This document shows, one piece after another, positions 2,620-28,405 of a stretch of 64,000 nt of DNA. Numbering within the stretch: position 1 is the stretch's first letter; every line of letters starts with the position of its first letter. This DNA comes from Naegleria gruberi. Lineage: Eukaryota. The notes under the pieces were generated by a model. It was given only the letters and a program-made list of their open reading frames with translations, was not told the DNA's origin and searched no databases. The stretch lies in the NCBI GenBank assembly GCA_000004985.1, contig GG738854.1; one strand, written 5' to 3'. Position numbers and translations under genes: made by a program.

Positions 2620-3765
2620 TCAATTGAAATTCCTCCACATTCTCTCCAAGGATCGTTTTTCAATAGCATACGGAACTTCAAGAACTCCTCTCAAAATCTT
2701 TAAAATATCAAGACCCATACTGTAATGAACATAAGTTAACAATAAACTATTGATATTGCACAACTTACAATATTCCAATAATTCCTGCAATTTGGCCTAA
2801 AAGACCTTCCATCGTTGAAGTAACCATTTCAGTAATTACATTAACATTCAATGTTGAATAAGCAACTGAAATTACCACTTCATCTCCATCGAATTGAGTT
2901 AATTCCACGATGGATAACTGAGGATGCCATCTCACTGAATTAATTCCTCCTTCGGTATTTGGTTTTAGTCTATTTGTGATAACCTTTGTCAAGATGAAAT
3001 AATTGTCCACTCCAGAAATTGCATAATTGGTCTCTGCAAATACATTAGGTACTGTTCCAGTTTCGTGAAAAGAAACTTGCAAACCAAATCTTGAATCTCT
3101 ATTTTCAGGAACAAAAGGGACATGAAAATAGAATGAAATAGTTCCTGCATATCCAATATCAGTAGCTTAAATTGTGAATGAGATTTTTCCTTGCTCGTTA
3201 ATCACTTACCATTCAAAAGTGATTGGCTCACATTATTGAATACATAACAATTGAACAATTGACCATTCTGAAAAAGCACAACTCTATCATAATGAGGATC
3301 CAAATTTTCCACAATTCCCAATGTAGAATTCACTTTCGTTGCAAACTTTAACGTTAAATTACAATAATCACAATCCAACATTGCATTCCAGTTACAAACA
3401 GTAATAGCTGGAAACGGTAAAGGAACTGACTCGATAAATGTTGTGGCTGTTGTTGGATTACTAATACTCTGCACAAATTGTTCGGAAGAGTCAACAATAT
3501 ACCATATACACATTGCTGTTGCTATGAACCACCCAATGCATGTTATTGCTCTGCTCACCTTAGTGTACATCCATGTTTTCTTCTTCTTTTTCCTCCGTTC
3601 TTGAAGTGTTTGCTGTATTTGCTGAATTTGCCTCACTTGTTCCATTCTGATTTCGGAATCCTGCACTCCATCATCACACACAGGACCTACTTGAACCTGA
3701 ATCCCAGACAACGTCTCGAACGTTGTAGAATTGGAACATTTCTCCTCCTCATTGTTTGTTGCCAT
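2620..3765 (-). CDS. DEG/ENaC/ASIC-like cation channel subunit, short form of about 350 aa, in 3 exons: 3765..3210, 3165..2769, 2719..2620.
   Basis: TM1 is ITCIGWFIATAMCIWYIV, followed by the post-M1 motif FPAITVCNWN (compare ENaC FPAVTICTLN). The pre-M2/M2 region EGLLGQIAGIIGIFMGLDILKILRGVLEVPYAIEK resembles ASIC [30 protein letters not shown]. Introns are 3166..3209 (GTAAGT...TTTAAG) and 2720..2768 (GTAAGT...TTACAG). The stop at 2620-2622 lies 5 bp from the stop of the convergent kinase gene. Confidence 0.7.
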
Positions 3766-3928: not shown

Positions 3929-4948
3929 TAATTAAAGTTATCCCAAACTCTTCGTATTGACCGATGTTTCACAGAATAGGGAATTACAAGAATTCCTCTT
4001 AGAAATTTCAATACATCCAATCCCATACTATCAACAAGCAAAAATTACAAAGCCAACTCTTAATAATAAACTTACAAAATTCCAACCATGCCAGCAATTT
4101 GCCCTAACAACCTTCAACGAAGTTGTGTAAATTTCTGAAATTTGTCTCAAATTCATAGAAGCATAAGCTACCGAAATAACAATGATATCATCATGTGTAT
4201 CGGTGAGTTCTATAAAGGACAATACTGATTCCCAACGAACCGAATGTAAGCCATCTTCTTTCGTTGGTTTCAATCTTGTGGTTAACACTTTTGTAACAGA
4301 AAAGAAATTGTCTACATTTGGAATGGCAAAGTTTGTCTCTGAAAAAACATTTGGCACAGTTCCAATCTCATGAAATGAAATTTGCAGACCGAATCTTCCA
4401 TCCAAACTCTGGGGCACGAGAGGGAGCTTAAAGTAGAATGTTAAAGTTCCAGAATATCCAACATCCTTTGCTGTTTCGAATGAGAATTATCCGCATAAAT
4501 TCAAATACGAACCTTCAACAGGATTCATCGACCTATTATTAAATACTAAACATTGAAATGGCTGTTCGTGCTGAACTACCACCTTACTATCATATTCCAT
4601 TGTGTAATTCTCCACAAAACCAGTTTCACTATTCACTCTCGTCAAGTGTTCCAAAGAAAGGGAGCAAAACTCACAATCATGCAAAGCATTCCAATTACAA
4701 ACAGTCATTGCAGGATAATATAAAGGAACCGAATCAACATAGGATGTTGCTGTGGTCGGATTTTCAAGTGCCGAGATGAAATTCGTTATTATATGAATAG
4801 GCAATATAAAATCCACAAACTCCCATCGCCACAATCCATCCAGCCATTGTGATTAATTCTCCAAAGTGAGGCAATCTGATACTCCAGTTTTTCCTTAATT
4901 GTGTCCATTTACTTTTATTAAGGGTGCCCTGCAAATTGGTATTATTTC
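3929..4948 (-). pseudogene. Tandem paralogue of the DEG/ENaC-like gene with the same 3-exon layout, but with apparent frameshifts. Probably a pseudogene, or an assembly indel error.
   Basis: The conserved blocks are spread over three reading frames at the 5' end: MDTIKEKLEYQIASLWRINHN, then GWIVAMGVCGFYIAYSYNNEF, then ISALENPTTATSYVDSVPLYYPAMTVCNWN. Exon 2 ends ...GAAGGTTGTTAGGGCAAATTG where the intact copy has GAAGGTCTTTTAGGCCAAATTG. That is a 1-nt deletion, which puts a TAG in the conserved frame. Exon 3 (FMGLDVLKFLRGILVIPYSVKHRSIRRVWDNFN*) is intact but out of phase with exon 2. Confidence 0.6.
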
Positions 4949-5340
4949 CTATTGTCTGATGATTAAGTTGATGATGATGATTATTATTGAATAATTTTCG
5001 TGATGATGAAGATGACGACCATGATGATGATGATTGATGATGTGATGAGGTGCCTTCTTTGGCGACCTTCCAACCTCTATATAAACACTATCTGAACTGA
5101 GAATCGACTTGTCTCTTCTTGGAAACGAAGTGTGCATTTTTTTGAGTGTTGTTAAGGGAAGTTTGAATACGGATTTGGAGTTCCATAGCCATAACTGAAA
5201 CATTGTTGTAGAAAGAAAATTCATTTCTTGGGTTATGATATATTGGTGAAGATGAATTGGAGGGTTGCTGCTTATTCCAGATGTCTACAACCAGCACACT
5301 ATGGAAAGAATATAAAAGAATAATTTTTTAAATATGCGAA

Positions 5341-5425
5341 GCTCATATAGCTCAGTGGTAGAGCATTTGTCTTATGAGAACTTAAGGTTAGCAGATGGCC
5401 GAGGGTTCGACCCCCTCTATGAGCA
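5341..5425 (+). tRNA. Intron-containing tRNA with a canonical cloverleaf. The anticodon loop is CUUAUG|A, giving anticodon UAU, which suggests tRNA-Ile(UAU). Position 37 is G, which is unusual. The intron is about 13 nt, located 3' of position 37.
   Basis: Acceptor stem GCTCATA pairs with TATGAGC, with discriminator A. D arm is GCTC-AGTGGTA-GAGC. Anticodon stem TTTGT/GCAGA has two G-U pairs. T arm is GAGGG-TTCGACC-CCCTC. The variable loop is 5 nt. There are 36 nt between the D arm and T arm where 22-23 are expected, so the extra is an intron. Confidence 0.6.
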
Positions 5426-5781
5426 GTTCAAATTTTTTGCTTTTTAGTAGTGTTAAAGATTTATTAGAAGATTTCAATTCCAATTAATTAGCTCCAATCT
5501 TTTGTAGAGAATAAGAAATCTTTACGAGGTTGTTTTTGAGAATACTTTCTCTTGACTACCATGGAATGCGAATCTCTTTGATTCCACTTCATACTGGTAA
5601 CCTGAATATTGTCCAACTTGTTTTTAAGTGGTTTGTCAGATACGTGGTGTAAATAGGGTTCGTCCTGGCCAAATGACTTTCCAGATGAAGATCTGCCAGA
5701 AGAGCTCCAAGGAGACAATTGTCCAAAACGAAAGCTTTGTAAAGAGATTAGGTTAGGTAATATAAAGCAAAAAATTTGAAC

Positions 5782-5866
5782 TGCTCATAGAGGGGGTCGA
5801 ACCCTCGGCCATCTGCTAACCTTAAGTTCTCATAAGACAAATGCTCTACCACTGAGCTATATGAGC
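5782..5866 (-). tRNA. Second, identical copy of the intron-containing tRNA (UAU anticodon), convergent with the first copy.
   Basis: This is the exact reverse complement of 5341..5425. It lies inside a perfect inverted repeat of about 140 bp. Confidence 0.6.
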
Positions 5867-6059
5867 TTCGCATATTTAAAAAATTATTCTTTTATATTCT
5901 TACCCATTCAACTTTTCTTGTCTCTTTATGGTTTGATGCTACATTTCAGAACCAACATTCATTCCTTTCTGGCCAGAATAAAAATTTAGAAAGATTATTT
6001 GATGAAATTGTTTACAAATTTAATGTAATCATCAATTTGTTCGTTTCAAAACAAAAAAA

Positions 6060-7079
6060 ATGATCAATCGCGATAATGATGAAGATAAAGTTTCTTTCAC
6101 CTTCTTTAATTTCACTCAATCCGAAGTCTGCAATCCTCTTTATGCTAAACTTCGTGAAAAACTTTCGTCCAACAAGAGCAAAACCTTCTCCATGCAATTT
6201 ACTCCCCACAAAACGATTGGCTATCAAAGGCCTATAATTACCGAGGACGGAGATGTGGAAGAAGTTTCTAATGAAGAGAACAAGTTGAAACTTCATTATC
6301 CTTCCGATATTAAAATTGCTCGCCATCATGGTTGTCTTGTAATTGCTGATGATCATAATGATAGAATAGTATTTCTCAATTTGGATAATTATCAATTGAG
6401 GACTGAATTTATTTTGGAAGAGAATGTCACTGATTTTTGGATTGAGTCTGATAGTGCTGGAAATGAATATATTTATTTTGGAGATAATGGAATTACTTTT
6501 AAATTTAATATTGCCAAATTGGTTGAACATGCACAAGTCAAGTTGAAAGATATAGAGCCTATGTGGAAGATTTCTGAAAAACTGTCTGGATCTATAATGG
6601 TAATACATGATACAAGTAGAAAGGAAAAGGTAGTATTGAGATGGAACAATGATGCACAAGGATTAAATGCTCATAGAGATTGTGATGGTTCTCTATTGGC
6701 CAAATATCCAGTCTTGTCGTTGTGTGATTCTCCTGGACTGTTTGCCATTTCAAATTCAGAATTCATTGCTCTCAATCACGAATCTAATATGGTCTTTAAA
6801 ATTACATTTACCGATGGCAAATGTGAAAACTCAGACATGTTTCAAGTACAAAATCATTGGAAACATCCACTTTCGGTTGCAAAAGAATTGAATCAACCTA
6901 GAATTTACATCTCAGATTATGGAAATAAGAGGATTGTTGTGTGGGACTTGTTGCAGGGGTGTGAAATTAAAATTCACCACGAGGAACATCTCCATCCATT
7001 TGGAATTTTCTATGACGATCAATCTGGACTACTCTATGTTGTCGATCAACAAGCTTCTATCATTCGAGTGTATCAGTAA
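6060..7079 (+). CDS. Hypothetical NHL-like beta-propeller protein.
   Basis: ATG follows an A-run (aaaaaaaATG). NHL-like blades: IYISDYGNKRIVVWD, LLYVVDQQASIIRVY, GCLVIADDHNDRIVF. Confidence 0.55.
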   Translation: MINRDNDEDKVSFTFFNFTQSEVCNPLYAKLREKLSSNKSKTFSMQFTPHKTIGYQRPIITEDGDVEEVSNEENKLKLHYPSDIKIARHHGCLVIADDHNDRIVFLNLDNYQLRTEFILEENVTDFWIESDSAGNEYIYFGDNGITFKFNIAKLVEHAQVKLKDIEPMWKISEKLSGSIMVIHDTSRKEKVVLRWNNDAQGLNAHRDCDGSLLAKYPVLSLCDSPGLFAISNSEFIALNHESNMVFKITFTDGKCENSDMFQVQNHWKHPLSVAKELNQPRIYISDYGNKRIVVWDLLQGCEIKIHHEEHLHPFGIFYDDQSGLLYVVDQQASIIRVYQ

Positions 7080-28332: not shown

Positions 28333-28405
28333 CGCCCCACGTGGGGCTCGAACCCACGACCGTTGGATTAAAAGTCCAACGCTCTACCGACTGAGCTAGC
28401 GGGGC
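28333..28405 (-). tRNA. tRNA-Lys(UUU).
   Basis: GCCCCGC-TA-GCTC-AGTCGGTA-GAGC-G-TTGGA-CTTTTAA-TCCAA-CGGTC-GTGGG-TTCGAGC-CCCAC-GTGGGGC-G. All stems pair, with one G-U pair in the acceptor stem. The ORF 28028..28423 translates this tRNA and is spurious. Confidence 0.9.

What the first reader, a model, noticed from the sequence alone, without database searches (positions are those of the whole stretch)
5307..5896. Convergent pair of identical intron-containing tRNA(UAU) genes in a perfect 140-bp inverted repeat
The two copies are 100% identical, including about 35 bp of 5' flank with a TATAAAAG box, and face each other across a 307-bp spacer. Perfect identity implies a very recent duplication or ongoing gene conversion. 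The tRNA has a short intron 3' of the anticodon, as expected for eukaryotic tRNA-Ile(UAU), but G at position 37 where tRNAs that read A-starting codons normally have A. Inverted tRNA pairs can also be recombinogenic or fragile sites.
Basis: seen in the sequence. Interest (0 to 1): 0.5.

Follow-up and report, generated by a model that had tools for sequence, protein, structure and literature searches.

The report
Inverted pair of identical tRNA-Ile genes
Two identical, facing copies of an intron-containing isoleucine tRNA gene lie between two protein genes in the amoeba Naegleria gruberi; this is an ordinary local gene duplication, and its one odd base (G next to the anticodon) also occurs in many virus-encoded tRNAs of the same type.

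Summary
The window is Naegleria gruberi nuclear DNA. A perfect 138-nt inverted repeat (5306-5443 / 5764-5901), extendable to 147 nt at 98%, holds two convergent, identical tRNA genes (5341-5425 +, 5782-5866 -). Rfam scores each at 61.4 bits. ARAGORN in intron mode calls both tRNA-Ile(UAU), with a 13-nt intron at the canonical 37/38 site and the loop CUUAUG|A, so position 37 is G.

Each arm spans a complete Pol III unit: TATAAAAG at -30, A and B boxes, and a T6 terminator at +8. The spacer holds nothing recognisable, and nothing points to a mobile element.

Same-isotype pairs with the first gene on + and the second on - are already counted for this genome: 4 seen against 0.51 expected. G37 beside UAU breaks the A37/t6A rule but is not unique. 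With the same D arm, 46 viral contigs carry it, against 2 for UUU and 1 for CAU. Eight giant-virus-like metagenome contigs share the whole anticodon arm.

Verdict: an ordinary duplicated tRNA gene pair of low interest. The G37 class of tRNA-Ile(UAU) is a modest side lead. Recent duplication and gene conversion cannot be told apart here.

The parts
5306..5443 (+). Left arm of the perfect inverted repeat: 35-nt 5' flank, tRNA gene, 18-nt 3' flank
   Evidence: Base-by-base complementarity check; repeat finder; self-BLAST
5764..5901 (-). Right arm of the perfect inverted repeat, an exact reverse complement of the left arm
5341..5425 (+). tRNA-Ile(UAU) gene, left copy, 85 nt with intron and 72 nt spliced
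   Evidence: Rfam RF00005 61.4 bits; ARAGORN -i tRNA-Ile(tat) i(37,13)
5782..5866 (-). tRNA-Ile(UAU) gene, right copy, identical to the left copy
5377..5389 (+). 13-nt intron AGAACUUAAGGUU at the canonical 37/38 position. Its UAAG pairs with C32-A35 of the anticodon loop. The anticodon is 5373-5375 and G37 is 5376.
   Evidence: ARAGORN; cloverleaf-constrained fold
5818..5830 (-). Intron of the right copy. The anticodon is 5832-5834 and G37 is 5831 (C on the + strand).
   Evidence: Coordinates mirrored through p+q=11207 and read
5311..5318 (+). TATAAAAG at -30 to -23 of the left gene, a putative upstream Pol III promoter element
   Evidence: Read in sequence; function inferred. The tRNA-Lys at 28333-28405 has no such box.
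5889..5896 (-). TATAAAAG at -30 to -23 of the right gene
   Evidence: Mirror of 5311-5318 inside the perfect repeat
5433..5438 (+). T6 run 8 nt after the 3' end of the left tRNA, a putative Pol III terminator
   Evidence: Read in sequence; function inferred from the known T-run termination of Pol III
5769..5774 (-). T6 run after the right tRNA (A6 on the + strand)
   Evidence: inside the perfect repeat
5444..5763 (.). 320-nt unique, asymmetric spacer between the perfect arms, with no recognisable gene or RNA
   Evidence: No Rfam match better than E=2.6 inside the spacer (snoZ119, 18.4 bits against a gathering score of 70). The 76-aa ORF has no Pfam hit. There is no second copy in the window.

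Best explanation
These are two functional nuclear genes for the minor isoleucine tRNA (anticodon UAU, reading AUA) of Naegleria gruberi, produced by a short local inverted duplication. Each copy is a self-contained RNA polymerase III unit with a TATA-like box at -30, internal A and B boxes, and a T6 terminator 8 nt downstream. Each primary transcript carries a 13-nt intron at the canonical 37/38 site. The intron pairs with the anticodon loop and leaves the 3' splice site in a bulge, which is the substrate form for the eukaryotic tRNA splicing endonuclease. By analogy with yeast, the intron probably also directs pseudouridine formation in the anticodon (inferred). The spliced 72-nt tRNA has the loop CUUAUGA, so position 37 is G. 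It therefore cannot carry t6A37 and would most likely be m1G37 (inferred). The two copies are identical either because the duplication is recent or because conversion between the arms homogenises them. The inverted arrangement itself probably has no function beyond doubling gene dosage.
For: Organism: the flanking ORF is 100% identical to an NCBI Naegleria gruberi protein.

tRNA: Rfam scores it at 61.4 bits against a gathering score of 29, over the full-length model. ARAGORN calls tRNA-Ile(tat) with a 13-nt intron. The sequence carries the expected conserved positions: U8, A14, G18-G19, U33, G53-T54-T55-C56, A58, C61, the G15-C48 pair and A73.

Pre-tRNA: the constrained fold gives a 4-bp anticodon-intron helix (C32-A35 with UAAG), a loop containing the 5' splice site, and a 4-nt bulge containing the 3' splice site.

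Demand: ATA makes up 18% of Ile codons, 15.9 per 1000, in 20 long ORFs of the window.

Unit boundaries: identity runs from 5 nt upstream of the TATA box to 5 nt beyond the T6 run, then falls to background.

Arrangement: N. gruberi has 924 tDNAs and 4 same-isotype pairs within 1 kb with the first gene on + and the second on -, against 0.51 expected (PMC2888827 supplementary file 2).

G37: it is a recurrent trait of UAU tRNAs, so it is not evidence of a pseudogene.

Intron role in yeast: the intron is needed for pseudouridine-34 in tRNA-Ile(UAU) (PMC6582322).
Against: There is no expression, splicing, charging or modification data. I could not read any other N. gruberi tRNA-Ile(UAU) locus or any orthologue from another Naegleria species, so conservation of G37, of the intron and of the pair within the genus is unknown. 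The unconstrained minimum-free-energy fold does not recover the anticodon stem, although that is common for pre-tRNAs. G37 removes the near-universal t6A37 of tRNAs that read ANN codons, so reduced or altered decoding cannot be excluded. The only other tRNA gene in the window (Lys) has no TATA box, so a promoter role for TATAAAAG is unproven.
Confidence: 0.82

Rival explanations
1. The identity is kept by ongoing gene conversion between the two arms of an older duplication, not by recency.
For: The repeat extends 3 + 6 nt beyond the perfect core, with 3 mismatches in those 9 edge positions and 0 in the 138 core positions. About 66 of the core positions (intron and flanks) should be weakly constrained. 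Six matches out of 9 at a background of about 0.25 has p of roughly 0.01. Identity ends almost exactly at the limits of the transcription unit.
Against: The repeat extension stops on matches by design, so the edge matches may be chance in AT-rich DNA. Arms of 138 nt are short for efficient conversion. No second strain or species was available to show concerted evolution.
Confidence: 0.4
2. The inverted duplication is an assembly or cloning artefact.
For: No reads could be examined here. Palindromic artefacts do occur in some library types.
Against: The repeat lies inside a 665-kb scaffold, between unique and different flanks. It encloses a unique, asymmetric 320-nt spacer. Artefactual fold-backs usually have no spacer and run to a contig end. 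The whole structure is about 600 nt, which a single Sanger read can span; that this genome was Sanger-sequenced is my own knowledge and was not checked here. A survey of the same assembly found 4 such pairs.
Confidence: 0.03
3. The structure is a mobile element, either a MITE-like element whose terminal inverted repeats are tRNA-derived or two insertions of a tRNA-derived SINE.
For: Inverted ends around a short internal region resemble MITE architecture. N. gruberi has an unusually large tDNA complement (924).
Against: There is no target-site duplication at either candidate boundary; the left flank reads ...cactat/gga and the right flank acc/cattc. Neither the arms nor the spacer has another copy in 64 kb. 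The tRNA is intact and high-scoring with its own terminator, not a decayed SINE head.
Confidence: 0.04
4. The tRNA is not a normal isoleucine decoder. G37 marks a pseudogene, a tRNA with altered identity or decoding, or a tRNA-like RNA with another role. Alternatively, the inverted repeat is transcribed as a hairpin that yields small RNAs.
For: G37 next to U36 breaks the A37/t6A rule. With the same D arm, this loop occurs in only 6 stretches among 185,579 prokaryotic species genomes. Bermudez-Santana et al. speculate that anti-parallel tRNA pairs could seed small RNAs.
Against: Reported eukaryotic IleRS identity elements are N34, A35 and U36, not position 37 (PMC9976931). The same loop with the same U31.G39 closing pair is kept in many independent giant-virus and phage tRNAs, which argues for a working tRNA. 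Each gene has a T6 terminator, and further T-runs in the spacer would stop Pol III before the antisense copy.
Confidence: 0.08

Closest known systems
Eukaryotic nuclear tRNA-Ile(UAU) genes with a canonical anticodon-loop intron (yeast tI(UAU), human tRNA-Ile-TAT)
   Same: Anticodon UAU, intron at the 37/38 site, intron pairing with the anticodon, discriminator A73, class I cloverleaf, and Pol III A and B boxes with a T-run terminator. In yeast the intron directs pseudouridine-34 formation (PMC6582322).
   Different: Position 37 is G, not A, so t6A37 is impossible. The intron is only 13 nt; about 60 nt in yeast and about 20 nt in human are figures from my own knowledge. The anticodon stem has G30-C40 and U31.G39, not the U30.G40 listed for yeast tRNA-Ile.
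Same-isotype tDNA pairs within 1 kb in eukaryotic genomes (Bermudez-Santana et al. 2010, BMC Genomics 11:270)
   Same: The two tRNA genes share one anticodon, lie 356 nt apart, and have the first on + and the second on -. The survey lists 4 such pairs in N. gruberi (0.51 expected), and similar pairs in Drosophila, Caenorhabditis and fungi. It attributes pairs to local DNA duplication.
   Different: The survey gives counts only. It does not describe this locus, its perfect identity, or the extent of its flanks.
Virus-encoded tRNA(UAU) genes with G37 (giant-virus MAGs and phage contigs in IMG/VR and JGI metagenomes)
   Same: The loop CUUAUGA with G30-C40 and U31.G39 is shared. Eight metagenome tRNAs have a D arm and anticodon arm identical to the spliced Naegleria tRNA over 35 nt. 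Some giant-virus copies (L002, L006, L017, L026) also carry an intron after G37.
   Different: The acceptor stem, variable loop and T arm differ. Most viral copies have no intron. They sit in viral tRNA clusters, often next to Arg(UCU) or Lys(UUU), and not in an inverted pair.

Membership tests
tRNA (Rfam RF00005) | Covariance-model score above the gathering threshold over the full model | tested here: met
   61.4 bits against a gathering score of 29, model positions 1-71, both copies
Eukaryotic intron-containing pre-tRNA | A single intron at the canonical 37/38 site (one nucleotide 3' of the anticodon) | tested here: met
   ARAGORN -i places a 13-nt intron between ttatg and agcag. Enumerating every other 13-nt excision gives loops with U at position 37 or without U33 (my own reading).
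Eukaryotic intron-containing pre-tRNA | An anticodon-intron helix with the 3' splice site in a bulge closed by a pair between position 32 and the intron | tested here: met
   The constrained fold pairs C32-A35 with the intron's UAAG and leaves the bulge GUU|A. C32 can alternatively pair with the G at -3. Cleavage itself is not testable here.
tRNA-Ile(UAU), the AUA decoder | Anticodon U34 A35 U36 | tested here: met
   TAT at 5373-5375
tRNA-Ile(UAU), the AUA decoder | A37 (t6A37), as in tRNAs that read ANN codons | tested here: not met
   Position 37 is G (5376). Position 37 is not among the reported eukaryotic IleRS identity elements, so membership by anticodon stands, but this is a variant.
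tRNA-Ile(UAU), the AUA decoder | Charged with isoleucine, and body sequence matching the Ile isotype | not testable with these tools
   No tRNAscan-SE isotype models and no experimental data are available here. A73 and C4-G69 are present.
RNA polymerase III type 2 gene | Internal A box and B box, and a downstream T-run terminator | tested here: met
   TAGCTCAGTGG at 5348-5358, GGTTCGACCCC at 5404-5414 and T6 at 5433-5438, all read. Transcription was not tested.
MITE or other transposable element with terminal inverted repeats | Target-site duplication and multiple genomic copies | tested here: not met
   No direct repeat at the ends and no other copy in 64 kb. Genome-wide copy number was not testable.

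The most novel reading that the evidence does not exclude
Naegleria's tRNA-Ile(UAU) belongs to a conserved and so far undescribed class of AUA decoders defined by G37, G30-C40 and U31.G39. The class is shared with many giant viruses and phages but is nearly absent from cellular prokaryotes. In this class, replacing t6A37 with G37 (probably m1G37 in eukaryotes) tunes decoding, for example by limiting U34.G misreading of AUG, or protects the loop from anticodon nucleases.
Probability: 0.3. Interest if true: 0.45.

Novelty: new member of a known kind. Interest (0 to 1): 0.22.

Why it matters
As a genome feature it matters little. Duplicated tRNA genes in inverted orientation are common in eukaryotes and have already been counted for this genome. 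The useful residue is the G37 trait. Nearly all tRNAs that read A-starting codons carry t6A at A37. Here a eukaryotic AUA decoder, and a sizeable set of viral ones, have G instead. The bias is strong: with the same D arm, 46 viral contigs have UAU plus G37, against 2 for UUU and 1 for CAU. If mature Naegleria tRNA-Ile(UAU) works with G37 or m1G37, it is a natural test case for how t6A-independent AUA decoding keeps AUA and AUG apart. It might also hint at where giant-virus tRNA-Ile genes come from.

Tried and rejected
1. I looked for the orthologous locus in relatives. The flanking ORF 6060-7079 has no homologue other than itself and is not on record for contig look-up. The phospholipase-B neighbour led to a related heterolobosean-like contig (L175/L176, 63-75% nt identity in that gene only). 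That contig has no shared neighbours and no tRNA, so it gave no comparative information.

2. I searched for spurious ORF translations of homologous tRNA loci, using the 41-aa ORF over the right copy. No candidates were found.

3. I searched the literature for G37 in tRNA-Ile(UAU), and searched for the anticodon-arm sequence as a text string. Nothing relevant turned up.

4. The Dictyostelium and Naegleria genome papers are not held.

5. I checked the spacer for a hidden gene or RNA. There is no credible Rfam match and no Pfam hit.

6. I rejected the MITE reading, because there is no target-site duplication and no other copy.

7. I rejected alternative anticodons by enumerating every possible 13-nt excision. 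Only UAU with G37 gives a loop with U33 and a purine at position 37.

8. The bacterial promoter and terminator scan is irrelevant for a eukaryote and found nothing.

Full report
**What is there.** The window is nuclear DNA of the amoeboflagellate Naegleria gruberi. The ORF at 6060-7079 is 100% identical to an NCBI 'predicted protein [Naegleria gruberi]' on a 665-kb contig. The window has about 33% G+C and carries intron-split eukaryotic genes.

At the reported place there is a real inverted repeat. The longest perfect run is 138 nt, 5306-5443 against 5764-5901. With three edge mismatches (5305, 5444, 5447) it extends to 147 nt at 98%, 5303-5449 / 5758-5904. Outside the arms, complementary positions match at only about 20-25%, so the boundaries are sharp.

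The spacer is 320 nt between the perfect arms and 308 nt between the extended arms, and the right arm ends at 5901. The observation itself is confirmed.

**The genes.** Each arm contains a tRNA gene: 5341-5425 on + and 5782-5866 on -, so they are convergent. Rfam's tRNA model scores each at 61.4 bits against a gathering score of 29, over the full model with a 16-nt insertion in the anticodon loop.

The default ARAGORN run could not name the anticodon. With intron search on, it calls both copies tRNA-Ile(tat) with a 13-nt intron, AGAACUUAAGGUU (5377-5389), between 'ttatg' and 'agcag'. I enumerated every other way of removing 13 contiguous bases from the 20-nt loop-plus-intron. Each alternative gives a loop with U at position 37 or without U33. 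The mature loop is therefore CUUAUGA, with anticodon UAU, G37 and A38.

The rest of the molecule is canonical. It has U8, A14, G18-G19, the G15-C48 pair, G53-T54-T55-C56, A58, C61 and discriminator A73 (read). With the cloverleaf imposed, the pre-tRNA folds into the usual eukaryotic splicing substrate:
- C32-A35 pair with UAAG of the intron.
- The 5' splice site lies in the terminal loop.
- The 3' splice site lies in a 4-nt bulge.

The unconstrained fold misses the anticodon stem. That is common for pre-tRNAs and I do not weigh it.

**The unit that is repeated.** The perfect repeat starts 5 nt upstream of TATAAAAG (5311-5318, -30 to -23). It ends 5 nt beyond a T6 run (5433-5438, +8 to +13). 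Between them lie an A box (TAGCTCAGTGG) and a B box (GGTTCGACCCC). What is duplicated is therefore one complete Pol III transcription unit and almost nothing else.

The promoter role of the TATA box is inferred. The only other tRNA gene in the window, Lys(UUU) at 28333-28405, has no such box.

**Surroundings.** The pair lies in an intergenic region of about 830 nt. On the left is a minus-strand ORF ending at 5224, upstream of tandem ASC/ENaC-like paralogues. On the right is the plus-strand 339-aa ORF starting at 6060.

The 320-nt spacer has no credible Rfam match (best E 2.6). Its 76-aa ORF has no Pfam hit, and it has no second copy in the window. There is no target-site duplication at the ends of the repeat, so I reject a MITE-like element.

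**How ordinary is the arrangement?** Bermudez-Santana et al. (PMC2888827) surveyed this same assembly and found 924 tDNAs. Twelve same-isotype pairs lie within 1 kb:
- 8 are parallel.
- 4 have the first gene on + and the second on -, which is the arrangement here.
- 0 have the opposite orientation.
- 0.51 are expected for each anti-parallel class.

Similar pairs are common in Drosophila, Caenorhabditis and fungi, and the authors attribute them to local duplication. This locus, with 356 nt between the genes, should be one of those four. As a kind of feature it is already known.

**Recent duplication or conversion?** I could not decide. For conversion of an older duplicate: the 9 edge positions hold 3 mismatches while the 138 core positions hold none, even though about 66 of the core positions (intron and flanks) should be weakly constrained. 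The identity also stops at the limits of the functional unit. Against it, the edge matches (6 of 9, p about 0.01 at a background of 0.25) may be chance, because the extension algorithm stops on matches. No relative was available for comparison.

My attempts to find an orthologous locus failed. The flanking ORF has no homologue and no contig record. The phospholipase-B neighbour led only to a non-syntenic contig without tRNAs.

**G37.** It is not a singularity, though. I scanned IMG/VR for the same D arm followed by six free bases and a chosen loop start.

| Loop start (anticodon, position 37) | Viral contigs |
|---|---|
| CTTATG (UAU, G37) | 46 |
| CTTTTG (UUU, G37) | 2 |
| CTCATG (CAU, G37) | 1 |

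G37 is therefore specifically frequent in UAU tRNAs. ARAGORN of the 47 matches in those 46 contigs tRNA-Ile(tat). In 185,579 prokaryotic species genomes the CTTATG pattern occurs only 6 times, all in MAGs.

A metagenome scan with the Naegleria D arm plus the 5' anticodon stem, left open at position 37, returned 8 contigs. All 8 have G37 and the 3' stem GCAGA, with the same two G.U pairs as Naegleria. Their D arm and anticodon arm are identical to the spliced Naegleria tRNA over 35 nt. These contigs look like giant viruses: L169 encodes two NCLDV-type capsid proteins, L167 encodes a topoisomerase II, and several carry tRNA clusters.

Four other viral tRNAs (L002, L006, L017, L026) combine G37 with an intron just after it. 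All 13 aligned members keep G30-C40 and U31.G39. Among viral tRNAs with G30-U31, G37 outnumbers A37 by 26 to 9.

G37 is therefore a stable trait of a class of UAU tRNAs and not a sign of decay. Reported eukaryotic IleRS identity elements are N34, A35 and U36 (PMC9976931), so isoleucine charging remains the expectation. Whether G37 is typical of eukaryotic tRNA-Ile(UAU) outside opisthokonts could not be tested with these collections.

**Function.** ATA makes up 18% of isoleucine codons (15.9 per 1000) in the window's long ORFs, so a dedicated AUA decoder in several copies is plausible. In yeast the tRNA-Ile(UAU) intron is required for pseudouridine-34 and prevents an aberrant ncm5U34 (PMC6582322). 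The Naegleria intron pairs with the same anticodon bases, so a similar role is a reasonable inference, but it is not shown.

**Fragility and hairpin RNA.** Nothing supports either. The arms are short and the spacer is about 320 nt, which disfavours cruciform extrusion (my own knowledge of work on inverted-repeat instability in yeast). Each gene also ends in a T6 terminator, and further T-runs in the spacer would stop Pol III before it reaches the antisense copy. An assembly artefact is unlikely. The repeat is internal to a long scaffold, encloses a unique asymmetric spacer and has different unique flanks.

**Verdict.** This is an ordinary, almost certainly functional, duplicated tRNA-Ile(UAU) gene pair in N. 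gruberi. It is a new member of a known kind and of low interest. The G37 / U31.G39 class of AUA decoders, shared with many viral tRNAs, is the one lead worth a follow-up.

Noticed in passing
L009, L010, L027, L030, L036, L038, L042, L043 (IMG/VR contigs; e.g. L009 7380-7500): A tRNA(UAU, G37) 5' half is followed within 5-45 nt by a second 5' half with anticodon UUU, a 10-20-nt insert, and a single 3' half that can pair with both 5' halves. It looks like two phage tRNAs (Ile-UAU and Lys-UUU) sharing one 3' half, or a Lys 5' half nested in a long intron of the Ile tRNA.
   Followed up: no
L167-L174 (JGI freshwater metagenome contigs), L021, L034: Giant-virus-like contigs carry intronless tRNA-Ile(UAU) genes whose D arm and anticodon arm, including two G.U pairs and G37, are identical to the spliced Naegleria tRNA. 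They often sit next to tRNA-Arg(UCU) genes with introns.
   Followed up: partly
window 2765-3765 and 4031-4834 (minus strand): There are two tandem, intron-split paralogues with a weak match to the amiloride-sensitive sodium channel family. PF00858 gives E 1.2e-4, just under the gathering score. They lie directly upstream of the tRNA pair.
   Followed up: no
window 28333-28405 (minus strand): A tRNA-Lys(UUU) gene has no intron, has A37, and has no TATA box at -30, unlike the Ile(UAU) pair. Upstream TATA elements are therefore not universal in N. gruberi tRNA genes.
   Followed up: partly
window 5426-5433 and 5774-5781: Directly after each tRNA 3' end, the sequence GTTCAAAT weakly resembles a second B-box core (GTTCGAAT). 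It overlaps the start of the T6 terminator.
   Followed up: no
L025, L029, L035, L045, L181: ARAGORN calls some of the tRNAs with the loop region CACGCTTATGTAGTG as tRNA-Stop(tta) (3 such calls). These are possible suppressor tRNAs in phage contigs and in a Lachnoclostridium MAG.
   Followed up: no
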